The notes under the pieces: model-generated
What the model saw: only the letters and a program-made list of their open reading frames with translations
What the model was told of the DNA's origin: nothing
Databases searched by the model: none
Shown: positions 2,841-17,208 of the stretch, one piece after another
Numbering within the stretch: the stretch's first letter is position 1
Layout of the letters: the number at the start of each line of letters is the position of its first letter
DNA from: a virus
Lineage: Duplodnaviria; Heunggongvirae; Uroviricota; Caudoviricetes
DNA length: 17,208 nucleotides
Direction: 5' to 3' (one strand)
Virus record (IMG/VR): IMGVR_UViG_2698536369_000010
Position numbers and translations under genes: made by a program

Positions 2841-3610
2841 CTACACACACTGCTCCTGAAAATACTGGTCATCCAGTGCAAAGATCACTGCTTCAAATTC
2901 ATCGCGCTCAATCAATACCGGATGAGTGGCTAAATATTCATTTATCTCTGTCAGAGATAAAGGCAAAGGCACCCCAGCCATTCCAGCATAACGTCGGGCA
3001 CGGGATATTACCGAATAGGCGTACAACAACTCCTTAAGCACCGGGTCTATTTCTGGTTCCGGTATCGGTGGCAACCTGAGTTTTTCTCGCTTCCATCTTG
3101 CCTTTTCCCCCCTTTCTCCCCCGAACTCCGATAACCACCGCTGGGCAGCTATGGCTTTTTTATCGTATCCTGCTTCTGCTGCTCTTTACCCTGGGCGATG
3201 CTGGCTGCTTCTGCAAGGATCTGCCAGTACAACTCTGGATTCTGCTTAAGCAGCGCGATCCCTCGTTCTGCCGTATATTCCAGTGCAACCTCAACACCAT
3301 TAACCAGTTCACCAACCCCTTTCCAGTCTTTCAGCAGATAACGAGCGGCATTATCAATGAGTAAATCATCAACAGAATCCACCTCGGAAACCTTTGAAAT
3401 ATCAAACTCCTTCGTTCCGACGTGCAAACTGGCATCCATTTTCTCAATGTGGCGACGGATTAATGCATTACGGGAGCGATACTGATCGTTATCGCTGCTT
3501 GCCACCAACAGTTTTAACCCGTCTACAGGTTTTAAGTCCTTCATTGGCGTAAACCAGCGTTCTCCACCAATGATAATTTTCTGATTAAGAATAAACATCC
3601 ATAACCTCAT
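2841..3610 (-). CDS. Tail assembly chaperone GT fusion made by programmed -1 frameshift (T extension covers 2841-3161)
   Basis: The -1 frame is open from 3185 down to 2841 and overlaps the 3' end of G. Slippery A AAA AAG is in the correct X XXY YYZ register in the G frame. The T-frame has no own start near the overlap (first start in the six-frame track is a TTG at 3074). Confidence 0.6.
3149..3610 (-). CDS. Tail assembly chaperone G (about 153 aa)
   Basis: Sits between major tail protein and tape measure. Ends ...GKEQQKQDTIKKP with the slippery heptamer one codon before its TAG stop. Two possible ATG starts (3610 or 3598), both with G-rich SD. Confidence 0.7.
   Translation of the reverse strand: MRLWMFILNQKIIIGGERWFTPMKDLKPVDGLKLLVASSDNDQYRSRNALIRRHIEKMDASLHVGTKEFDISKVSEVDSVDDLLIDNAARYLLKDWKGVGELVNGVEVALEYTAERGIALLKQNPELYWQILAEAASIAQGKEQQKQDTIKKP
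3155..3161 (-). other. Programmed -1 ribosomal frameshift slippery heptamer A AAA AAG
   Basis: Minus-strand ACG ATA AAA AAG CCA TAG; the heptamer is identical to the E. coli dnaX slippery site. Position matches the conserved G/GT frameshift of long-tailed phages. Confidence 0.6.
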
Positions 3611-3690: not shown

Positions 3691-4620
3691 TCACGGCAGC
3701 CGGGGAATTTTTTTTCTGGTTATCGTAGGTGCTTCATCTGCTGCGGTAATGCTCAATTGAACCTGGATAATGTCGCTATTACCCCCATCAGGCCATTCAC
3801 CTGACACCTGAACCTTCGGGAAACTGAAAGTGTATGCCCCCTCTCCATTCGAAAGCGTGAAGCTGAACGGAACTGTTTCTCCAGTCAGTGTTTTACTCCA
3901 GATTTCCCACGCGGCTTTAGACCATGAAAGCGTCACCGTACCGGACGGTGTAAAAGTAGTCGGAATATTTGCTCCTGCATAAGGCGAGCCAGTCCCGATA
4001 CAACGCTGTGTCTGGAGTTTGTTATCGAACTGAATATCAAAACTGTCGATACAAAAACCGTTACCTCCGGCAACACCATTCAGGCTTACTGCTGAAACCT
4101 CCTTAAACGAATAACGTAGCTTTCCTGCACTATCCACAGGTTCGCCTTTGATAAAATTCGTATCATCGGCCTTTGATTCCCAGTCCAGTCCGGCAAAGGT
4201 TACGGTCGCTGTAATATCGCCGTCGTTAGGGATCTGCATTTTCCATGAGCCAACCTGCGCTCCTCTGACGACAGAGGCAATTCCGACATCGGACGCATAG
4301 GTCGCCAGAGAAAATGTTATTCGCTCATTCCCCATTGTCAGAGAATCGCCTGACCATTCCGCGCCGAAACAGGATGCAAGAAAATCATCATGTTGACCCC
4401 AGCGAAATTTGGTACCAACATCACCGCCGACATCCACAGTGCCAGGCGTCGCCCCCTGAGCCATCCGGGAGCCACCAATCTCATTATTTTCGCCTTTATT
4501 CTGGGTGGGTTTTACTCCCCAGCTTGTGCGTTTTAATAAACTCCAGTCACCACTTGCTGGCGTAGTGCCTGCAACCGTCTCCCGGATAAATGCCGAGATA
4601 ACCTTTGCACCTGAACTCAC
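3691..4620 (-). CDS. Major tail (tube) protein (309 aa)
   Basis: Directly upstream of G/GT and downstream of the head-tail joining genes. GTG start at 4618-4620 preceded by AGGAGG with a 5-nt spacer. Gly/Thr/Ser-rich beta-type composition. Confidence 0.65.
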   Translation of the reverse strand: MSSGAKVISAFIRETVAGTTPASGDWSLLKRTSWGVKPTQNKGENNEIGGSRMAQGATPGTVDVGGDVGTKFRWGQHDDFLASCFGAEWSGDSLTMGNERITFSLATYASDVGIASVVRGAQVGSWKMQIPNDGDITATVTFAGLDWESKADDTNFIKGEPVDSAGKLRYSFKEVSAVSLNGVAGGNGFCIDSFDIQFDNKLQTQRCIGTGSPYAGANIPTTFTPSGTVTLSWSKAAWEIWSKTLTGETVPFSFTLSNGEGAYTFSFPKVQVSGEWPDGGNSDIIQVQLSITAADEAPTITRKKIPRLP

Positions 4621-4646
4621 AGGAGCCTCCTATGTCATTAATTGCG

Positions 4647-11029: not shown

Positions 11030-12331
11030 TTAAATCCGAAGTGATGTGACTCTTCCGGTCGGTTTGACAATAGGGAATTGCTTAACGATGAAATAACCTC
11101 CGGCATCATTCGGGTGATCATTGCCAGATTTTTTATCAGGCTCCCCCTTATCATCCCAGACCTGTTGCTCCAGAGATTCGGCATATACCGGACAACGCTT
11201 CACATTAACTTTATAGCGACGCTCACCATTGGCATTGCAGAACATTGCATTCATTGAGTTAACGCGATCTTTTACTGGCGGGTTCGAGCTGTTCACCACA
11301 ACGTTAAAACCTGCCTGCTTAAGCTGGGCTATATCCGTCGTACTTGCGTTACTTGATTTTCTGGAATCTCCGGAAGCATCTGGATAAATATAAATCTCCC
11401 TCACTTTCCGGTAATCATGCCCGTCATACAGCCAGAAGCGTTCTTTAATGAGGCGGATCATATCCGGCGTATCGTAGGCATTGATGATTTCAGTTACCGC
11501 ACATGGAAGCCCCAAACGCAGCACATGGACGATTCCCGCCATCTTTCCAACGTTAAAATCCATCCCAATATAAATCGGCTCCCCTGGCTGCTCCACTTCT
11601 TCGCAATTATTCAGTTTCCGGTCAAACTGATGGTAAACAGTACCACTTGTCAGGTTAGTAAACCGTCCTAGAAGATAGGCTTTAATCAGCTCTGGAGGGT
11701 ATGATTCAAGAAGTGAAGGAATGTAATCTGCTGGCAGGTTCTTTTCATTATCGAAAGTAGATGCCTGCACCAGACCATACAGTGAGGCCAGCTCTGTTTT
11801 TTCACGCACGGCTTTAACAAACTGCTCGTAGACAAATTTGAATCCTTCCGGCGTGGTTGTAACGTCAATACCGTTGCGAAGTCCATCAATCTTATAACGC
11901 ATACGCGCAATTATCTTGCGCCACGCCGTTCTGGCTTTTTCCTTCGGCAAAATGTCCAGTTCATCCACCAGCGCATTACCAATTTTGAAACCGACGATCG
12001 TTTGTGGCTTCTCCATCGATCTGCAGATAGTGGTTCCCCGATACTGGCGTCCGTAATAAAAGTGAACCTCTTTATTTCCCTCATTAATTTTTACGTTCAA
12101 TCCCCAGTCAGCAGCAACTTCTTCCACTGTAGGGTAAAAAATATCGCGAATTTGGGGATACGTTGGCGCAAAATATCCCTGATTTATACCTGGATGCTCC
12201 CAAATCCCCTTGCATATGCCGCCACACCCAACCCATGTTTTGCCCGAGCCAAAACCAGCAATATAGGCTTTAAATTTATGGGGCATTGAAAGAAATCGCG
12301 CCTGAGGCACATTAAGCGTCGGAGAGATCAT
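11030..12331 (-). CDS. Terminase large subunit (about 433 aa from ATG at 12331)
   Basis: Walker A motif GFGSGKT near the N-terminus and acidic nuclease-type motifs (IGMDFN, IYPDASGDS) in the C-terminal half. AAGGAG SD 8 nt upstream of the preferred ATG; the track start is an upstream GTG. Confidence 0.9.
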   Translation of the reverse strand: MISPTLNVPQARFLSMPHKFKAYIAGFGSGKTWVGCGGICKGIWEHPGINQGYFAPTYPQIRDIFYPTVEEVAADWGLNVKINEGNKEVHFYYGRQYRGTTICRSMEKPQTIVGFKIGNALVDELDILPKEKARTAWRKIIARMRYKIDGLRNGIDVTTTPEGFKFVYEQFVKAVREKTELASLYGLVQASTFDNEKNLPADYIPSLLESYPPELIKAYLLGRFTNLTSGTVYHQFDRKLNNCEEVEQPGEPIYIGMDFNVGKMAGIVHVLRLGLPCAVTEIINAYDTPDMIRLIKERFWLYDGHDYRKVREIYIYPDASGDSRKSSNASTTDIAQLKQAGFNVVVNSSNPPVKDRVNSMNAMFCNANGERRYKVNVKRCPVYAESLEQQVWDDKGEPDKKSGNDHPNDAGGYFIVKQFPIVKPTGRVTSLRI

Positions 12332-13406
12332 CTTCATCACTCCTTAATCTGGCATCAACCACATTAATATTGATCGCCACAGGCTGGGGATGTTCATTAT
12401 CCTCCACCGTTTCGATCTCTTTGCGCAGCTTCTGGTTCTCTATTCTGCGCCGTTCAATTTCCAGTTCCTGTAGCCGCTTATCTGCACATAATGCCCCGCC
12501 AGCAGAAAGCAAACGCAACAATTCACGCCGGGCGGCAGCCTTATCCTCCAGCAGGATCTCAACACCGTATTTTCCGAGCTTTGACCCTGCATATAATTGC
12601 CGCGCATCCCCATCAAGCAGTGTGGTATCAGCCATATAAAGCTGTCCTGTTCCCTCACCGCAGCACTTCGGGCAATCAGGATTGGGTATGGCGTTATCAA
12701 CAAAGCCGAGGCCTCCATATTCCGGCTCGGGTTTACCATCTCTGGAGGCCTGTGCCGCAGCCTTATCGAATTCTGCAATATCACGCCACTGGTAGAGATG
12801 ATTCTCGCCCCAGCAATAACGGCAGTTAACACGGCGAAATTGTGCCAACTGATTGGGGTCGGCCTGGACAATGGCCATCAACTGGCTCACCAGTAAATCC
12901 AGGTCTGCGGTATAGCGTTTCTGGTACTGATTGCGGAAGTAGCTGATAGCACGATAAACCCTGGCATTTCTAAGCATACGGCTGGCGTTGCTGTTAGCTG
13001 TCGCACCTTGCCCCTCATAACCAGCCAGTCGGTATGCCTCTGTCGGCTTTTTCCCCTGAGCAACCAACATGGCGAATTTTGCCTGCTGGTCAGAAATACC
13101 GAATTCATCGGGGCAGAACGAAATTTCTTCCGTGTCCCCCTCAATCAGGAGTGCATCGGATACAGCCTTTTTTTTCTGAGATTTTCCGTTCTGCCTTTGC
13201 GCAGTCTGCGCAGTTTTTTTTCGCGCACTTTTTTGCGCAGTTTTGCGCATTTCTTTCTGCGCATTTTTCGGAGTTTTTTTGATGTAACGACGGGCTGTTG
13301 CGTAGTTCAGTCCCCTTGCTTCACACCATGCCACCGGAGATATACCGGAGCGGGTGTATTCAGCAATATACTCCTGCTGCAACGCCCCCCAGTCCGGTCT
13401 GCTCAT
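12312..13406 (-). CDS. Terminase small subunit, atypically long (364 aa)
   Basis: Directly upstream of and overlapping the large terminase. N-terminal HTH-like segment, a Lys/Ala/Gln-rich basic linker, a core resembling small-terminase signatures (ISDQQAKFAMLVAQGKKPTEAYRLAGY...ASRMLRNARV), and an inserted Cys cluster CRYCW...CPKCC. Confidence 0.75.
   Translation of the reverse strand: MSRPDWGALQQEYIAEYTRSGISPVAWCEARGLNYATARRYIKKTPKNAQKEMRKTAQKSARKKTAQTAQRQNGKSQKKKAVSDALLIEGDTEEISFCPDEFGISDQQAKFAMLVAQGKKPTEAYRLAGYEGQGATANSNASRMLRNARVYRAISYFRNQYQKRYTADLDLLVSQLMAIVQADPNQLAQFRRVNCRYCWGENHLYQWRDIAEFDKAAAQASRDGKPEPEYGGLGFVDNAIPNPDCPKCCGEGTGQLYMADTTLLDGDARQLYAGSKLGKYGVEILLEDKAAARRELLRLLSAGGALCADKRLQELEIERRRIENQKLRKEIETVEDNEHPQPVAININVVDARLRSDEDDLSDA
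13167..13280 (-). repeat. Phased array of six GCGCA motifs separated by T/A tracts, inside the terS 5' region
   Basis: Plus-strand GCGCA at 13198, 13207, 13222, 13234, 13244 and 13258, with T runs of 4-8 nt between them. Encodes the basic linker KNAQKEMRKTAQKSARKKTAQTAQ. Confidence 0.6.
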
Positions 13407-13409
13407 CAG

Positions 13410-13661
13410 TTAGTCCTGATTTTTATCCACCCTGAGTAGTTCGCGCAGAGCAAAGGCATCCCCTTTTCTGGCAAGCTTAAACAATGCCGCTCGTAACTCG
13501 GCTTCACCTTTCGCTCTGCCCTTACGGATGGCCGCATAAAAATCTGTCATTGCTTCCCGATTTTCTTTCAGTCGGTTCAGATCAACATCCAGAACGTCAG
13601 CGATTTGTTGTGCAGTCATCCGGCACGCTGCCAGAGACTCGACTTTCGAATACGGAATCAT
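13410..13661 (-). CDS. Small hypothetical protein with HTH-like N-terminus (83 aa)
   Basis: Ends 3 nt before the terS start. GGGGGTG SD upstream of the ATG at 13659-13661. Overlaps the 3' end of the upstream gene by 65 nt in another frame. Confidence 0.4.
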   Translation of the reverse strand: MIPYSKVESLAACRMTAQQIADVLDVDLNRLKENREAMTDFYAAIRKGRAKGEAELRAALFKLARKGDAFALRELLRVDKNQD

Positions 13662-14529
13662 TTGTCACCCCCATTGATATGCAGGGTGTCTTCTTCCTGT
13701 ATTTTTCGTGAAGGATTTTTACTGCAGCGTTGTTCCAGGTGACCTGATGGTGAATGCGTTTATGGCTGGCACCCATCAGTGAGATTTTTACGCACGACGG
13801 CGAATACATGACGGAGTAAAAACTTTTAACGTAGGTTCCGGAATCCAGATACAGCTCGGTCATTCCGCCGCTGTTTTTCTGCGTCTGTTTCTGCCCTAAC
13901 TGGACAGCACCGATCGTCATAAACAATTCACCACAGCGACCGAGATTCGTGTACGTATTCACATCCTCGTTAATGCGCCCCATGAATGAGAACGGTCGAT
14001 CAACCGAACAGATAAAGCTGTTCATTGCCTTGCGTTTCACCCACGAAGCATGGCCGCCATTGTCACCAAGAAAATCCCCGCCCTGCGACATAGCGATGGA
14101 AAGCGCGGGTATTGATTCGTAATACGCCAGCATTTCAGAAAGGATCGCATCCAGTTTCCTTATCGGGAAATAGGCCTGGTCATAGTTGCGATCCACCCGA
14201 AACTGGAACTCGTGATAATCATCATCGAGCTGAATGAAGTATTTACACCCGACCAGTTTTGCCAGGTCGAAACAGGCATTACGGGCGTAAAAAATTGAGC
14301 GGCGATCACCAAAATTATCGGCTTCGTCAAAACGACTGGCAATATCGGCTTTGGAAAATACCAGCACCTGTTCACCAAATTCAGCCATGTACTGATGCCG
14401 TGTCTTATCTTCATCATCAACAACGATAAAAATTTTCCCGGTATAGCCAGCACGACGCAACGTCCGGTAAGTCAGAACTTTGTCCGGTCGCCCGTGAGTC
14501 AGAATAAAGGCGCAAAAATCATCACGCAT
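13597..14529 (-). CDS. Uncharacterized protein with a GT-A-like glycosyltransferase signature (about 310 aa from ATG at 14529)
   Basis: Hydrophobic strand FCAFILTHGRPD, then KIFIVVDDED, then about 60 aa later YFIQLDDDY: the spacing of a GT-A Rossmann-like fold with a DxD motif. Preferred ATG overlaps the ParB-like stop (ATGCGTGA) and follows GGAGGAGGAGG. No predicted membrane segments. Confidence 0.5.
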   Translation of the reverse strand: MRDDFCAFILTHGRPDKVLTYRTLRRAGYTGKIFIVVDDEDKTRHQYMAEFGEQVLVFSKADIASRFDEADNFGDRRSIFYARNACFDLAKLVGCKYFIQLDDDYHEFQFRVDRNYDQAYFPIRKLDAILSEMLAYYESIPALSIAMSQGGDFLGDNGGHASWVKRKAMNSFICSVDRPFSFMGRINEDVNTYTNLGRCGELFMTIGAVQLGQKQTQKNSGGMTELYLDSGTYVKSFYSVMYSPSCVKISLMGASHKRIHHQVTWNNAAVKILHEKYRKKTPCISMGVTNDSVFESRVSGSVPDDCTTNR

Positions 14530-15313
14530 ATTCCTCCTCCTCCCCGCCATGCATGATCTCCACCATGCGCTGCGTCATTCGGACAAATCCATTTTCAATA
14601 GCCTGCTGATAATCAATGATCACCAGCGCCGACTCCTCGAAAAGGCACTGAATTTCAGCGGGGGCATGAGCGTAATAGTCCGCAATTCTGCTGAAATTAA
14701 ACACTGTGTGACGTTCTGCCGCACACAGGAGGAATTTCTCAATATCAGGATCAAGGGACGCCGAACGTATCCGGCTGATCAGCTCCTGAGTTTTCGTATC
14801 GTCGTACAGTTCACTGATATCCGGTTTACCGCCCGACGGCTCATAAACAGGCGTATCAATTTTCGTCGTATACGGCTCCTCCTCATTTCCTGTACCGGGC
14901 AAAACATCCGTCAACAGTTCATCAATTTCTGTCGGGATGAAGCCTGTCAGGGAGACATCAAAATCAGCATTGATTAGGTCCGACAGCTCCATCCGCAACA
15001 GATCTTCATCCCAGCCAGCATTCATCGGCAGGCGATTATCTGCCAGGCGGTACGCCTTTTTCTGCTCATCCGTCAGGCCAGACAGAACAATGACCGGAAC
15101 AGAATCCATTTTGAGCATTTCAGCCGCCATAACACGACCGTGACCCGCAATAATTTCGCCCTTTTCGTCAATCAGCACCGGATTAGTCCAGCCGAATTGC
15201 TTAATACTTTCTACCAGTTGTGCCACCTGCTCAGTACTGTGCGTCCTGGCATTGTGCGCATACGGTGACAATTCTTGTAATGGGCGATAGACTATCTTTA
15301 ATTTCTCGCTCAT
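14522..15313 (-). CDS. ParB/Srx-like nuclease-domain protein (263 aa)
   Basis: N-terminus (YRPLQELSPYAHNARTHSTEQVAQLVESIKQFGWTNPVLIDEKGEIIAGHGRVMAAEMLKMDSVPVIVL) matches the ParB N-terminal pattern seen fused to phage DNA methyltransferases, including the DVSLTGF linker. The C-terminal 150 aa are acidic with no methyltransferase motifs. Position matches ynaK of Rac but identity was not verified. Confidence 0.75.
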   Translation of the reverse strand: MSEKLKIVYRPLQELSPYAHNARTHSTEQVAQLVESIKQFGWTNPVLIDEKGEIIAGHGRVMAAEMLKMDSVPVIVLSGLTDEQKKAYRLADNRLPMNAGWDEDLLRMELSDLINADFDVSLTGFIPTEIDELLTDVLPGTGNEEEPYTTKIDTPVYEPSGGKPDISELYDDTKTQELISRIRSASLDPDIEKFLLCAAERHTVFNFSRIADYYAHAPAEIQCLFEESALVIIDYQQAIENGFVRMTQRMVEIMHGGEEEEYA

Positions 15314-15329
15314 ACAGCCTTGCTTTATG

Positions 15330-15368
15330 AATAAAACGCACCCCAGCAGCCAGTGCTACTGGGGGCGG
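15330..15368 (-). terminator. Intrinsic terminator downstream of trkG
   Basis: Minus strand CGC-CCCCAGTAGC-ACTG-GCTGCTGGGG-(U)GCG-TTTTATT: about 13-bp G:C-rich stem with one G.U and one bulge, then a U-tract. The plus-strand version has a C-A mismatch, favouring minus-strand function. Confidence 0.6.
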
Positions 15369-15450
15369 AGGTGTTGCTGGTAAAGTTAGGTATTGGATCA
15401 ATGAGTGAGTCAACATAATATTAAACTCACAATTATAAATCAGCCATATA

Positions 15451-16908
15451 TTAGGAGCGCCAAAAAAAACCTGAAAACAATATAATAACAGGATAAATTT
15501 CAAGGCGACCAAGAATCATAGCTATGCACATTAAATATTTTGCAATGTCATTAAGCACTCCGAATGACGATGCAGTAGCCCCAAAACCTAATCCCATATT
15601 ATTAATACATGCAGCCACTGTTGCAAATGATGTAAGAAAATCATATCCCATACCATTTAACACCAGTATAAAAAACACCGTGAAGAGAGTATAAAGAAAA
15701 AAGAAACTCCATACAGACCTCATTACACGATCTGTAACTATCTTCCCTCCTACATTTACACTTAACAACGCTCTGGGATGAGAAAGTTGATTTATCTCGT
15801 GTTTGCTTTGTTTGAAAAGTATAAGAAATCGAAGTGACTTAATTCCACCACAGGTTGAACCGATACATCCCCCAAAGAAACTTGACAACAGCAAAAACAC
15901 TATCGTGTGCGTGGGCCAGTTTGCATAATCCTGCGTAGCTAAACCATTATCAGTGAGCATGGAGCTGGCAAGAAAAAACGAATGAATAAAACTTCCATGC
16001 AAGTCATACATACCTATATGCCAGACCTGGAAAGAGGTAACAATGATCACCCCTAAGGCTATTAACAGAAAGAAACGAAGTTCAATATCTCTGATTAAAG
16101 GTTTTATCGTTTTTCTGCTAATAACAATATACCAAAGAGTGAAGTTGAAAGCCGATAGCAGGGAAAAAGAACCAGCCACCAGCTCAACCAAATAGTTATT
16201 AAAATATCCGATACTCTCGCTATGAGTTGAGAAACCACCAAGCGAAACTGTGGAAATCCCGTGACAAATAGCATCAAACAAAGGCATTCCTGCAAGTCTA
16301 TAACAGACAATACAAGCAATACCTAATAAAGAATAAGTTATCCACAGTGTCCGTGACGTATCGGCCAGGCGGGGAGTGAGTTTGTCATCCTTAAATGGCC
16401 CCGGCATTTCTGACTGATAAAGCTTTGCACCACCAATACCCAATAATGGCAATACTGCAACCGCCAGAACAATAACTCCTAAACCACCTATAAAATTTAA
16501 CTGTGACCGATAGTACAAATATGCCCGAGGTAATGAACTAACATCATCAATTACAGTTGCTCCTGTTGTTGTTATTCCAGAAACCCCTTCAAACAGAGCA
16601 TCAATGAACGTTAAATTAAGTTCTGAGTCAATCCATAAAGGGAATGCACTAATAACAGAAAACAAAATCCAAAACATTACAATTATAATAAACCCATCAC
16701 GGGTACGTAATTGAATGCCAGATTTCTTAGTTGTATACCACGCTCCGCCACCAATGCAAAAAAATATAACGAAAGTTATAAAGAAAACGAACAGGCTTTT
16801 TTCTTTATAAAACAATGCTACAACCATTGGTGGCAACATTGAAAGACTATAGAGCCAAACCAGGAACCCACACATATGAGTAACAACTCTTACATGAGAT
16901 GTATTCAT
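15451..16908 (-). CDS. trkG: Trk-family potassium uptake membrane protein TrkG (485 aa from ATG at 16908)
   Basis: Multi-pass membrane protein with repeated pore-type segments; recognised as TrkG, which lies in the Rac prophage of E. coli K-12 next to the Rz/Rz1 genes. Clearly AT-rich compared with neighbours. An upstream in-frame TTG (16926) with an AAGGTGG SD would give 491 aa. Confidence 0.9.
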   Translation of the reverse strand: MNTSHVRVVTHMCGFLVWLYSLSMLPPMVVALFYKEKSLFVFFITFVIFFCIGGGAWYTTKKSGIQLRTRDGFIIIVMFWILFSVISAFPLWIDSELNLTFIDALFEGVSGITTTGATVIDDVSSLPRAYLYYRSQLNFIGGLGVIVLAVAVLPLLGIGGAKLYQSEMPGPFKDDKLTPRLADTSRTLWITYSLLGIACIVCYRLAGMPLFDAICHGISTVSLGGFSTHSESIGYFNNYLVELVAGSFSLLSAFNFTLWYIVISRKTIKPLIRDIELRFFLLIALGVIIVTSFQVWHIGMYDLHGSFIHSFFLASSMLTDNGLATQDYANWPTHTIVFLLLSSFFGGCIGSTCGGIKSLRFLILFKQSKHEINQLSHPRALLSVNVGGKIVTDRVMRSVWSFFFLYTLFTVFFILVLNGMGYDFLTSFATVAACINNMGLGFGATASSFGVLNDIAKYLMCIAMILGRLEIYPVIILFSGFFWRS

Positions 16909-17046
16909 ATCTAAATATTCTTTCAATTATAACCACCTTGCTGCAATATTATGATTATACTGTATAAAATTTAACTCCTCTTAGATCTTACTTCACTGTT
17001 CCTTATGAAACAATCATCAAAATGAATCATATTGTAGTTAAGATTT

Positions 17047-17208
17047 TACTTTAAACACTGCTCGGTTATGTATTGCTGAGCACCTTCAAGTTGGGCCTGC
17101 ATCATTACCAGTCGTTCCCGGAGGGTGAAATAATCCCGTTCAGCGGTGTCTGCCAGTCGGGGGGAGGCTGCATTATCCACGCCGGAGGCGGTGGTGGCTT
17201 CACGCACT
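17047..17208 (-). CDS. Spanin inner-membrane subunit Rz, C-terminal fragment (start lies beyond the window)
   Basis: Minus-strand translation ends ...ADTAERDYFTLRERLVMMQAQLEGAQQYITEQCLK*, closely matching the lambda Rz C-terminus as I recall it. Confidence 0.8.
17105..17208 (-). CDS. Spanin outer-membrane lipoprotein Rz1, C-terminal fragment, embedded in Rz in another frame
   Basis: Translation ...CVKPPPPPAWIMQPPPDWQTPLNGIISPSGNDW* carries the proline-rich Rz1 C-terminus, nested out of frame inside Rz. Confidence 0.7.
   Translation of the reverse strand, partial: CVKPPPPPAWIMQPPPDWQTPLNGIISPSGNDW

What the first reader, a model, noticed from the sequence alone, without database searches (positions are those of the whole stretch)
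15330..17046. AT-rich trkG moron inserted between the lysis cassette and the packaging genes, with its own -10 element and a strong downstream terminator
trkG is visibly much more AT-rich than the flanking phage genes. A perfect TATAAT (plus 16954-16959, minus strand) lies in the 120-nt AT-rich gap after Rz, though without a good -35. A strong hairpin plus U-tract follows the gene. This is the classic autonomous moron layout, with the terminator insulating the late genes from lysogenic moron transcription.
Basis: partly seen in the sequence, partly recalled or inferred. Interest (0 to 1): 0.45.

Follow-up and report, generated by a model that had tools for sequence, protein, structure and literature searches.

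The report
trkG cargo gene of Rac prophage

Summary
The window is an intact Rac-type lambdoid prophage of E. coli with every gene on the minus strand. trkG (15451-16908, or from TTG 16926) has 37.9% GC, against 45-51% for the other 17 phage ORFs. The gap after Rz is 25.5% GC. TATAAT sits at 16959-16954. A 13-bp hairpin (15367-15337, -25.2 kcal/mol, z -5.8) is followed by UUUUAUU.

The low GC, foreign origin and Rac location of trkG, its H-NS repression, an active promoter fragment and a constitutive sigma-70 promoter are all documented for K-12, whose upstream region is identical.

Refinements from this work:
- The trkG-specific segment is about 15384-17067.
- The hairpin lies in backbone DNA. 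Relatives without trkG have a weaker, partly alignable hairpin there.
- No exact empty site exists in 5,426 complete genomes.
- A second TATAAT (16931-16926) overlaps a TTG start that ribosome profiling supports.
- The promoter/Shine-Dalgarno core is 91% conserved in E. albertii, where 4-fold sites have diverged 47%.
- The only mapped K-12 3' end found at the hairpin is on the opposite strand.

Interest is low.

The parts
17046..17208 (-). 3' end of the Rz (i-spanin / 'lysis protein') gene. The stop codon TAA is at 17048-17046, and the gene runs off the window.
   Evidence: Annotated as lysis protein / endopeptidase Rz in near-identical records. GC is 0.552. Other lambdoid Rz genes align only from 17068 upward.
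15384..17067 (.). The trkG-specific, AT-rich segment (about 1.68 kb): the last ~7 codons of Rz, the upstream gap, trkG, and ~67 nt of 3' tail.
   Evidence: trkG-less relatives with the same ParB/packaging module align only up to 15367 or 15383. trkG-less Rz genes align only from 17068. The composition steps fall at the same places.
16927..17045 (-). AT-rich non-coding gap that holds the trkG promoter region.
   Evidence: GC is 0.255 over 16909-17045. It is identical in K-12. It is 82.6% identical to E. albertii, where 4-fold sites of trkG differ by 47%. It is nearly invariant in 79 viral contigs. The K-12 lux fusion that ends at 16909 and runs about 508 bp upstream is active (PMC9898762).
16954..16959 (-). 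Perfect -10 hexamer TATAAT, the favoured trkG promoter. The predicted +1 is A at 16947. There is no usable -35.
   Evidence: One search gives the match. It is absent from the two-hexamer scan. It is conserved in E. albertii. It lies upstream of the Shine-Dalgarno sequence and TTG start, so it can produce the translated mRNA.
16933..16939 (-). Shine-Dalgarno sequence AAGGTGG, 6 nt before TTG 16926.
   Evidence: Read from the sequence. Conserved in E. albertii. Tetracycline ribosome profiling places a trkG initiation site at TTG -18 (PMC4909307).
16926..16931 (-). Second perfect TATAAT. It overlaps the TTG start codon (16926-16924) and is an alternative -10, with +1 near 16919.
   Evidence: Conserved in E. 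albertii.
15451..16926 (-). trkG coding sequence: 491 aa from TTG 16926, or 485 aa from the usually annotated ATG 16908. The stop codon is at 15453-15451.
   Evidence: ORF list. Pfam TrkH PF02386, E 1.1e-144. TIGR00933 scores 415 bits against a cutoff of 331. Solved TrkH structures 3pjz and 4j9u match at E 2e-121. Annotated as TrkG in more than 1,000 genomes.
15384..15450 (-). AT-rich 3' tail of the cassette, with only a weak stem-loop.
   Evidence: Fold is -9.6 kcal/mol, z -0.95. Similarity with the E. albertii locus fades by eye at about 15400.
15337..15367 (-). GC-rich hairpin: 13 bp, one bulged U, loop ACUG.
   Evidence: -25.2 kcal/mol, z -5.78. Present in all 76 viral contigs that have enough flank. 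The commonest variants keep pairing: 15365 C>U gives U-G, and 15358 U>C turns a U-G pair into C-G. K-12 has U at 15365.
15330..15336 (-). U-tract UUUUAUU directly after the hairpin. It ends 16 nt before the ParB-like start codon.
14522..15313 (-). ParB-N-domain protein (full-length YnaK, 263 aa), the first gene of the packaging and structural block.
   Evidence: PF02195. phrog_620, E 1.7e-90.
15368..15378 (+). Equivalent position of a mapped K-12 RNA 3' end on the strand opposite to trkG, 8-9 nt past the hairpin as read on the plus strand.
   Evidence: PMC10687069, Supplementary Data 3, sheet LB RNAtag-seq: chr '-' 1425312-1425322, dominant 1425315, annotated ynaK.trkG.IGR. The mapping is window = 1440690 minus the K-12 coordinate. 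It was checked against the printed fold sequence.

Best explanation
Positions about 15384-17067 are the trkG cargo ('moron', lysogenic-conversion) cassette of a Rac-type lambdoid prophage. It sits at the module junction between the lysis genes (S-R-Rz) and the ParB-like gene that opens the packaging and structural block.

In the lysogen, trkG is transcribed on its own by sigma-70 RNA polymerase from the 119-137-nt AT-rich gap. The most likely promoter is the -35-less TATAAT at 16959-16954 (predicted +1 at A16947). That start would give a ~20-nt leader carrying the Shine-Dalgarno sequence AAGGTGG and the TTG start at 16926. H-NS and StpA bind the AT-rich DNA and partly repress it.

The product is a TrkH-family membrane subunit. 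It works with the host's TrkA gating ring and performs Na+-dependent K+ uptake.

Sense transcripts are expected to stop at the strong hairpin plus U-tract at 15367-15330. This keeps transcription in the lysogen out of the ParB-like and terminase genes. During lytic growth, Q-modified polymerase from the late promoter reads through this terminator.

What is shown: gene identity, the composition step, the boundaries, the sequence elements and their conservation (this work); promoter activity, H-NS repression and transport function (literature on the near-identical K-12 locus). What is inferred: which hexamer is the -10, termination at the hairpin on the sense strand, and Q read-through.
For: Identity and context: every gene is on the minus strand, in the order Rz, trkG, ParB-like, glycosyltransferase-like, terminase, head, tail. 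About 1,040-1,520 of 5,426 complete E. coli genomes carry the locus, depending on the query and the 80% coverage criterion. Deposited phage genome records (10) and 144 viral contigs also carry it.

Composition. Orthologues in Buttiauxella and Morganella (62-68% aa identity) are 0.47-0.51 GC, so the low GC is not imposed by the protein.

Boundaries.

Promoter:
- The K-12 region is identical.
- The K-12 trkG-lux fusion covering 16909 to about 17416 in window-equivalent coordinates is active, and trkG mRNA rises in hns and hns stpA mutants (PMC9898762).
- Genomic SELEX finds a constitutive RpoD promoter for trkG in Rac (PMC5811629).
- The core 16920-16975 is 91% identical to E. albertii against 47% divergence at 4-fold sites. 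The distal candidate TTTAAA-18-TATGAT is not conserved there.
- Both TATAATs, the Shine-Dalgarno sequence and the TTG are invariant in 79 viral contigs.
- Ribosome profiling gives TTG -18 as a start.

Terminator.

Q antiterminator: phrog_753, E 3e-79, in the 99.8% identical prophage, and annotated in ON470614.1.

Selection on the host side: trkG and its upstream region survive when the phage genes are deleted. This is seen in K-12, strains 600055 and GDSC2227PM, and E. albertii.
Against: No transcription start site for trkG could be retrieved, so the -10 assignment is untested. A lone TATAAT in 25% GC DNA is expected by chance 29% of the time.

The lacZ test of the TTG against the ATG start was inconclusive (PMC4909307).

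The hairpin lies in backbone-homologous DNA, not in the AT-rich insert.

In the readable part of one K-12 3'-end data set, no sense-strand trkG 3' end is listed and the only significant end at the hairpin is antisense. Another data set's held supplements do not mention trkG at all.

No exact empty site was found.

The U-tract is only UUUUAUU.
Confidence: 0.85

Rival explanations
1. trkG has its own promoter, but not the one the reader chose. Transcription would start from the second TATAAT (16931-16926, +1 near 16919). That gives an 11-nt leader without a Shine-Dalgarno sequence and use of ATG 16908. Alternatively it would start further upstream, at TTTAAA-18-TATGAT (17055-17026) or inside Rz.
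For: The second TATAAT is equally perfect and equally conserved. The only two-hexamer match upstream of trkG in the scan is 17055-17026. The active K-12 lux fragment is about 508 bp and does not discriminate between these sites. The mainstream annotation uses ATG 16908.
Against: A start at 16919 would exclude the conserved AAGGTGG and the TTG -18 initiation site seen by ribosome profiling. The 17055-17026 hexamers are not conserved in E. albertii: TTTAAA becomes GCTGAA and TATGAT becomes TATGGT. Two-hexamer matches in the region are no more frequent than in shuffles, 5 against 6.7.
Confidence: 0.3
2. The hairpin is mainly a feature of the phage backbone at the head of the packaging block, not trkG's own terminator. 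It would be a slot terminator that ends whatever lies upstream. It might also act in both directions, including as the 3' end of an antisense RNA across the ParB-like start.
For: trkG-less relatives JNU and RM13745 have partly alignable sequence with a weaker hairpin (-14.1 kcal/mol in JNU) and a T6 run at the same distance from the ParB-like ATG, after unrelated small cargo ORFs. A K-12 3' end is mapped on the opposite strand 8-9 nt past the hairpin. A plus-strand promoter-like site GTGACA-17-TAGACT lies at 15265-15293.
Against: This does not exclude termination of trkG transcripts. The U-tract is on the trkG strand only. The hairpin in trkG-bearing phages is much stronger than in trkG-less ones. 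The plus-strand promoter match is at chance level.
Confidence: 0.3
3. trkG has no autonomous expression. It is made only by read-through from the late promoter or other upstream phage promoters.
For: It lies co-oriented inside the late operon directly after Rz. There is no -35.
Against: In K-12 the endolysin, holin and Q-position genes found upstream of Rz in intact relatives are missing (one search compared). Even so, trkG mRNA is at a level similar to trkH, a promoter fragment drives lux, and TrkG supports K+ uptake (PMC9898762). Genomic SELEX detects RNA polymerase holoenzyme binding (PMC5811629). E. albertii keeps the gene and its upstream region with no recognisable phage genes in the ORFs around it.
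Confidence: 0.04
4. The AT-richness reflects the amino-acid make-up of a membrane protein rather than foreign origin.
For: GC1 is very low, 0.42 against 0.51-0.62. GC2 is ordinary at 0.395. The codon-usage distance is not an outlier.
Against: GC3 is the lowest in the window at 0.323. The non-coding flanks are even more AT-rich, at 0.255. Orthologues of the same fold are 0.47-0.51 GC with GC3 0.48-0.62. The host paralogue trkH is 53% GC (PMC9898762).
Confidence: 0.03

Closest known systems
trkG of the cryptic Rac prophage of E. coli K-12 (b1363; Schlosser et al. 1991 as cited in PMC9898762; Tanudjaja et al. 2022, PMC9898762)
   Same: It is the same gene and the same regulatory flanks. The sequence is 99.4% identical over 15060-17208 and 100% identical over 16850-17208. 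It has the same neighbours, Rz/Rz1 upstream and ynaK downstream.
   Different: Here the prophage is intact. The ParB-like gene is full length (263 aa), and the terminase, head and tail genes follow. In K-12, ynaK is truncated and the structural genes and the endolysin, holin and Q-position genes are deleted (one search compared). The hairpin has C at 15365 where K-12 has U.
Morons of lambdoid phages, as defined for HK97/HK022 by Juhala and Hendrix (from my own knowledge); examples are lambda lom and bor, and stx in Stx phages
   Same: It is an extra gene in the late region with deviant base composition, and the host-side data suggest a benefit to the lysogen. It has a promoter region of its own and is followed by an intrinsic-terminator-like hairpin.
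   Different: No exact empty site was found. The terminator appears to belong to the recipient slot rather than to the imported DNA. The cargo is a 1.5-kb housekeeping-type transporter subunit that depends on host TrkA.
TrkH of Vibrio parahaemolyticus (PDB 3pjz, 4j9u) and E. coli TrkH
   Same: It is the same family and length: PF02386 and TIGR00933, with E 2e-121 to the solved TrkH.
   Different: It is a paralogue. It scores below the TrkH equivalog cutoff, 452 against 866 bits, and is 41% identical to Salmonella TrkH. It is reported to be Na+-dependent and Na+-permeable, unlike TrkH (PMC9898762).
H-NS-silenced, horizontally acquired AT-rich genes (xenogeneic silencing)
   Same: It is a 38% GC gene with a 25% GC upstream region. 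Published work shows derepression in hns and hns stpA mutants (PMC9898762).
   Different: Silencing is only partial; the mRNA level is similar to that of trkH. A search for the high-affinity H-NS motif showed no enrichment.

Membership tests
TrkH/TrkG family K+ transporter subunit | Full-length match to the family profile above the curated cutoff | tested here: met
   PF02386 at E 1.1e-144, 483 bits against a cutoff of 27, covering profile positions 3-500 of 502. TIGR00933 at 415 bits against 331. PDB TrkH at E 2e-121 over residues 7-485.
TrkH/TrkG family K+ transporter subunit | It is TrkG rather than TrkH | tested here: met
   Below the TrkH equivalog cutoff, 452 against 866 bits. 13 nucleotide differences from K-12 Rac over 15060-17208, 11 of them inside the trkG CDS. 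Annotated as TrkG in the matching RefSeq genomes.
Moron (autonomous cargo gene of a temperate phage) | Base composition differs from the flanking phage genes | tested here: met
   0.379 GC against 0.446-0.511. GC3 is 0.323, the lowest of 18 ORFs. Sharp steps occur at about 15390 and about 17050-17068.
Moron (autonomous cargo gene of a temperate phage) | It lies between two genes that are adjacent in related phages (an empty site exists) | tested here: not met
   A joined Rz-end plus ParB-start query found no place covering at least 80% in any of 5,426 complete E. coli genomes. Only mosaic evidence exists. The same ParB/packaging module occurs without trkG but with a different lysis cassette and other small cargo. 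Homologous Rz genes occur with other downstream DNA.
Moron (autonomous cargo gene of a temperate phage) | Its own promoter, active in the lysogen | tested here: inconclusive
   Sequence level: two TATAATs without a -35, conserved far above the neutral rate in E. albertii. Function comes from the literature on the identical K-12 region: an active lux fusion (PMC9898762) and RpoD holoenzyme SELEX (PMC5811629). The start site is not mapped.
Moron (autonomous cargo gene of a temperate phage) | Its own transcription terminator directly downstream | tested here: inconclusive
   A strong hairpin plus U-tract lies 84-121 nt after the stop codon. It sits in DNA shared with trkG-less relatives. No sense-strand 3' end was found in the readable K-12 data.
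Moron (autonomous cargo gene of a temperate phage) | Dispensable for lytic growth and of benefit to the lysogen | not testable with these tools
   Indirect only. trkG is retained in decayed prophages that have lost the structural genes. Relatives of the phage lack it.
Intrinsic (Rho-independent) terminator | GC-rich stem-loop followed immediately by a U-rich tract on the transcribed strand | tested here: met
   13-bp stem, -25.2 kcal/mol, z -5.78, then UUUUAUU. On the plus strand the hairpin is not followed by a U-tract.
Intrinsic (Rho-independent) terminator | RNA 3' ends in the U-tract in vivo or in vitro | not testable with these tools
   The literature look-ups gave only an antisense 3' end at the hairpin in K-12 and nothing in another data set.
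Lambdoid late operon with Q antitermination | A Q-like antiterminator upstream of the lysis genes | tested here: met
   It is outside the window but present in the 99.8% identical prophage L001: phrog_753 'anti-termination protein Q-like', E 3.2e-79. It is annotated as Q in phage ON470614.1. Read-through of the trkG hairpin by Q-modified polymerase is an inference.

The most novel reading that the evidence does not exclude
The GC-rich hairpin between trkG and the ParB-like gene may work in both directions. Besides ending trkG transcripts, it would form the 3' end of a short (~75-nt) antisense RNA that starts near 15300 on the plus strand, from GTGACA-17-TAGACT at 15265-15293. This RNA would be complementary to the ribosome-binding site and start codon of the ParB-like gene. 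It could help keep the first gene of the packaging block silent in lysogens.
Probability: 0.08. Interest if true: 0.4.

Novelty: already known. Interest (0 to 1): 0.12.

Why it matters
It matters little as a discovery. That trkG is a low-GC, phage-borne second copy of the Trk transporter subunit has been known since 1991. Its promoter activity and H-NS repression have been published.

The locus is a clean textbook example of a phage cargo gene that the host keeps while the prophage decays. The refinements found here are useful for annotation and for anyone designing trkG expression experiments:
- the cassette limits;
- the terminator belonging to the recipient slot;
- the likely TTG start with a strong Shine-Dalgarno sequence;
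- the constrained promoter core;
- the antisense 3' end at the hairpin.

Tried and rejected
(1) Published TSS and 3'-end maps for trkG.
- The supplements held for PMC7815308 do not mention trkG, ynaK or rzoR.
- No supplements are held for PMC9023263, PMC8848933, PMC9122600 or PMC4161252.
- Schlosser 1991 (PMC207911) and a second id I entered from memory for an E. coli dRNA-seq TSS study (PMC4288677) are not held.
- Only PMC10687069 gave a hit, and it is antisense.

(2) Rfam. There is no family at gathering score in the whole window. In 15200-17208 there is only a chance-level snoRNA hit at E 0.89. No riboswitch or known sRNA lies in the leader.

(3) The H-NS high-affinity motif TCGATAAATT with up to 2 mismatches gave 29 matches against 23.5 expected. 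No concentration in the cassette is apparent. This is uninformative.

(4) The synonymous-codon distance does not separate trkG from the phage genes.

(5) Flanking direct or inverted repeats that might mark an insertion mechanism: only short AT-rich chance matches were found.

(6) The exact empty site was not found.

(7) More diverged trkG alleles for footprinting. Viral contigs hold only 99-100% identical copies. Genome contigs gave E. albertii (93% aa) as the only informative one. The Buttiauxella and Morganella genes (62-68%) have the same GC as their flanks, and I did not examine their neighbours.

(8) A supposed second low-GC Trk gene in Shigella flexneri (L019) turned out to be trkG itself, riddled with frameshifts and stops.

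(9) The donor of the cassette remains unidentified. I ran no further search on it.
Full report
**What the window is**

All substantial ORFs are on the minus strand. They form the late region of a lambdoid prophage, in this order:
- the Rz end (17046-17208);
- trkG;
- a ParB-N-domain protein (14522-15313);
- a glycosyltransferase-like protein;
- small and large terminase;
- portal;
- a Mu-F-like minor head protein;
- a P22-type coat protein;
- tail genes and the tape measure.

Region 14500-17208 matches E. coli chromosomes at up to 99.8% identity. There it is annotated as lysis protein, trkG and ynaK. One such prophage (L001) shows the full Rac gene set: recE, racC, kilR, sieB, ydaS/T/U/V-like genes, a Q-like protein, essD, rrrD, Rz, trkG, and then packaging, head and tail genes. 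Ten deposited phage genome records, such as ON470614.1 (38.7 kb), carry the same arrangement. So do 144 IMG/VR viral contigs. K-12 MG1655 Rac is 99.4% identical over 15060-17208 and 100% identical over 16850-17208. Experimental work on K-12 therefore applies directly to the regulatory sequences.

**Checking the observation**

Composition. trkG (16908 to 15451, 485 aa) has 0.379 GC and GC3 0.323. The other 17 ORFs have 0.446-0.511 GC and GC3 0.387-0.542. The upstream gap 16909-17045 has 0.255 GC, and the Rz end has 0.552. In 100-nt windows the steps are sharp: 0.49 falls to 0.27 around 15400, and 0.25 rises to 0.49-0.61 around 17050-17100.

The low GC is not forced by the protein. Orthologues in Buttiauxella (68% aa identity) and Morganella (62-63%) have 0.47-0.51 GC and GC3 0.48-0.62. 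trkH is reported at 53% GC (PMC9898762). A synonymous-codon distance did not mark trkG as an outlier. I therefore describe the signal as compositional only.

The -10 element. TATAAT at 16959-16954 is real. It lacks a -35, because it is absent from the two-hexamer scan. On its own it is weak evidence: shuffles of the gap contain at least one TATAAT on that strand 29% of the time.

The hairpin. It spans 15367-15337, folds at -25.2 kcal/mol (z -5.78, 0 of 200 shuffles as stable), and is followed by UUUUAUU.

**What was already known**

PMC9898762 summarises Schlosser et al. 1991: trkG has 38% GC against 53% for trkH, lies in Rac, and is regarded as foreign. The same paper shows three things:
- trkG mRNA increases in hns and hns stpA mutants;
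- expression is nevertheless similar to that of trkH;
- a trkG promoter-lux fusion is active.

The lux primers place that fragment from the base before the ATG (window 16909) to about 508 bp upstream. PMC5811629 reports a constitutive RpoD-holoenzyme promoter for trkG within Rac, found by genomic SELEX. It states that trkG must have entered the prophage together with its promoter.

**Limits of the cassette**

E. coli strains JNU and RM13745 carry relatives with the same ParB-like, glycosyltransferase-like and terminase block but no trkG. They align with the window only up to 15383 and 15367. Upstream they have a different lysis cassette (two holins, an M15 peptidase, a small spanin-like ORF) and other small cargo ORFs.

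Rz genes of other lambdoid prophages align only from 17068 upward. The trkG-specific DNA is therefore about 15384-17067, which coincides with the composition steps.

A query joining the Rz end to the ParB start found no exact empty site in 5,426 complete genomes. The 'insertion' is thus inferred from mosaic junctions at a module boundary, not from a filled/empty pair.

**The terminator belongs to the slot**

The hairpin and U-tract (15367-15330) lie outside the AT-rich segment, in DNA that aligns with the trkG-less relatives. At the same distance from the ParB-like ATG those relatives have a weaker hairpin and a T6 run. In JNU the fold is -14.1 kcal/mol, z -0.29. In RM13745 the 53-nt stretch I folded (which omits the 5' arm of the outer stem) gave -10.8 kcal/mol and only the inner 4-bp stem.

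The E. albertii trkG locus shares the gene, the upstream region and, by eye, roughly 50 nt after the stop codon. It has neither this hairpin nor a ParB-like gene.

Among 76 viral contigs the hairpin is always present. The commonest variants keep pairing: 15365 C>U gives U-G, and 15358 U>C turns a U-G pair into C-G.

The layout 'cargo, then terminator, then ParB-like gene' is therefore a property of this site. trkG uses a terminator it probably did not bring with it.

**Which promoter**

The gap contains two perfect TATAATs, at 16959-16954 and 16931-16926. The second overlaps a TTG at 16926, which is preceded at 6 nt by AAGGTGG.

Tetracycline-inhibited ribosome profiling lists a new trkG initiation site at 'TTG -18', which is exactly this codon (PMC4909307). 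The lacZ confirmation was inconclusive. One phage record also annotates the 491-aa form.

An mRNA that contains this Shine-Dalgarno sequence and TTG must start upstream of about 16940. That fits the first TATAAT (predicted +1 at A16947) and not the second.

Comparison with E. albertii gives an independent test. The genes are 84.4% identical, with 47% of 4-fold sites changed. The gap is 82.6% identical, and the core 16920-16975 (both TATAATs, the Shine-Dalgarno sequence and the TTG) is 91% identical. The only two-hexamer candidate, TTTAAA-18-TATGAT at 17055-17026, is not conserved there. In 79 viral contigs none of these elements varies. The predicted +1 varies A/G in three of them.

I put about 0.55 on that hexamer specifically.

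**How it most likely works**

In the lysogen, sigma-70 polymerase starts in the AT-rich gap. H-NS and StpA damp this start (literature). The mRNA encodes TrkG, a TrkH-family pore subunit. TrkG uses host TrkA and shows Na+-dependent K+ uptake (PMC9898762).

Sense transcripts are predicted to end at the hairpin. This spares the ParB-like, terminase and head genes from transcription in the lysogen.

In lytic growth the Q-like antiterminator should make late-promoter transcription resistant to this terminator, as in lambda. The Q-like protein matches phrog_753 at E 3e-79 in the near-identical prophage and is annotated as Q in ON470614.1. Read-through is an inference from established lambdoid biology.

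The gene is kept when the prophage decays:
- K-12 lacks the packaging and head genes;
- strain 600055 has an IS1 45 nt after the stop codon;
- GDSC2227PM has lost everything from ynaK to the tail fibre;
- in E. albertii the ORFs around trkG include no recognisable phage genes, only a remnant that aligns with the Rz end, and the gene and promoter region remain under constraint.

**An unexpected datum**

In PMC10687069 (Supplementary Data 3, LB RNAtag-seq sheet) the ynaK-trkG intergenic region has one significant 3' end, and it is on the strand opposite to trkG. The entry is chr '-' 1425312-1425322, dominant 1425315. This maps to window plus strand about 15375, 8-9 nt beyond the hairpin. The coordinate conversion agrees with the printed fold sequence.

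No sense-strand trkG end appears in the held part of that file, which was cut when stored. The plus-strand hairpin is also stable, but no U-tract follows it. A chance-level promoter-like site on the plus strand at 15265-15293 would give a ~76-nt RNA covering the ParB-like ribosome-binding site and start codon.

This is the only lead towards anything new, and it is weak.

**Verdict**

The finding is already known. Interest is low (0.12).

Noticed in passing
window 16924-16939 (minus strand): trkG probably starts at TTG 16926, with a strong Shine-Dalgarno sequence AAGGTGG 6 nt upstream. That is 6 codons before the ATG used in RefSeq and UniProt. Ribosome profiling lists 'trkG TTG -18' (PMC4909307), but the lacZ check was inconclusive. 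The ATG at 16908 has no recognisable Shine-Dalgarno sequence.
   Followed up: partly
window 15368-15378 (plus strand); candidate promoter at 15265-15293 (plus strand): A K-12 RNA 3' end is mapped on the strand opposite to trkG and ynaK, just past the hairpin (PMC10687069, Supplementary Data 3). It may be a short antisense RNA across the ParB-like ribosome-binding site and start codon. Its 5' end is unknown.
   Followed up: partly
window 13597-14550 and 14522-15313 (minus strand): The ParB-N-domain gene overlaps by 29 nt a gene matching TET-associated glycosyltransferase (PF20691, E 6e-35) and phrog_842 'beta-glucosyl-HMC-alpha-glucosyltransferase' (E 1.5e-103). Both lie directly upstream of the terminase genes. 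The near-identical prophage L001 also has a cytosine methyltransferase, an O-methyltransferase and an ATP-binding protein in its early region (L001 22936-26435). This may be a DNA-modification module.
   Followed up: no
window 14522-15313; L001 16560-16817: RefSeq annotates this gene as a truncated 'ynaK' pseudogene (258 nt, missing C-terminus). The window has an uninterrupted 263-aa ORF, which the phage record ON470614.1 annotates in full. I suspect, but did not check, that the truncated K-12 YnaK served as the reference for the RefSeq call.
   Followed up: partly
window 13410-13661 and 12312-13406 (minus strand): An 83-aa ORF matching part of a small terminase subunit (phrog_309, E 8e-23) lies just upstream of the 364-aa Terminase_2 protein. 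Two adjacent ORFs therefore both have small-terminase similarity.
   Followed up: no
window 3149-3610 (minus strand): The ORF annotated 'YdaY' in relatives matches a tail assembly chaperone (phrog_313, E 4e-46). The K-12 gene ydaY, of unknown function, is probably a remnant of this.
   Followed up: no
L028 (strain 600055), L029 (GDSC2227PM), hit H5 (WP8-S17-ESBL-05), L005 (K-12): IS1 and IS5 elements and deletions cluster around trkG. An IS1 lies 45 nt after the stop codon with loss of all head and tail genes. One genome has an IS5-like element inside trkG. Several decayed prophages keep trkG while losing the structural genes.
   Followed up: partly
L002 4538-4834 and L003 about 4540-4645 (trkG-less relatives): In relatives the same slot between the lysis genes and the ParB-like gene holds other small ORFs of unknown function. 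In JNU this is a 98-aa protein matching phrog_1935. The site behaves as a variable cargo position.
   Followed up: partly
phage record ON032529.1: A record named 'Salmonella phage SPF_0923' (host Salmonella sp. S7) is 99.4% identical to this E. coli Rac-type region, including trkG. This is either an unusual host or a labelling or contamination issue.
   Followed up: no
L019 6001-7423 (Shigella flexneri SFBU0723): trkG is present but full of frameshifts and stop codons. It is either a decaying pseudogene or indel errors in the assembly.
   Followed up: partly
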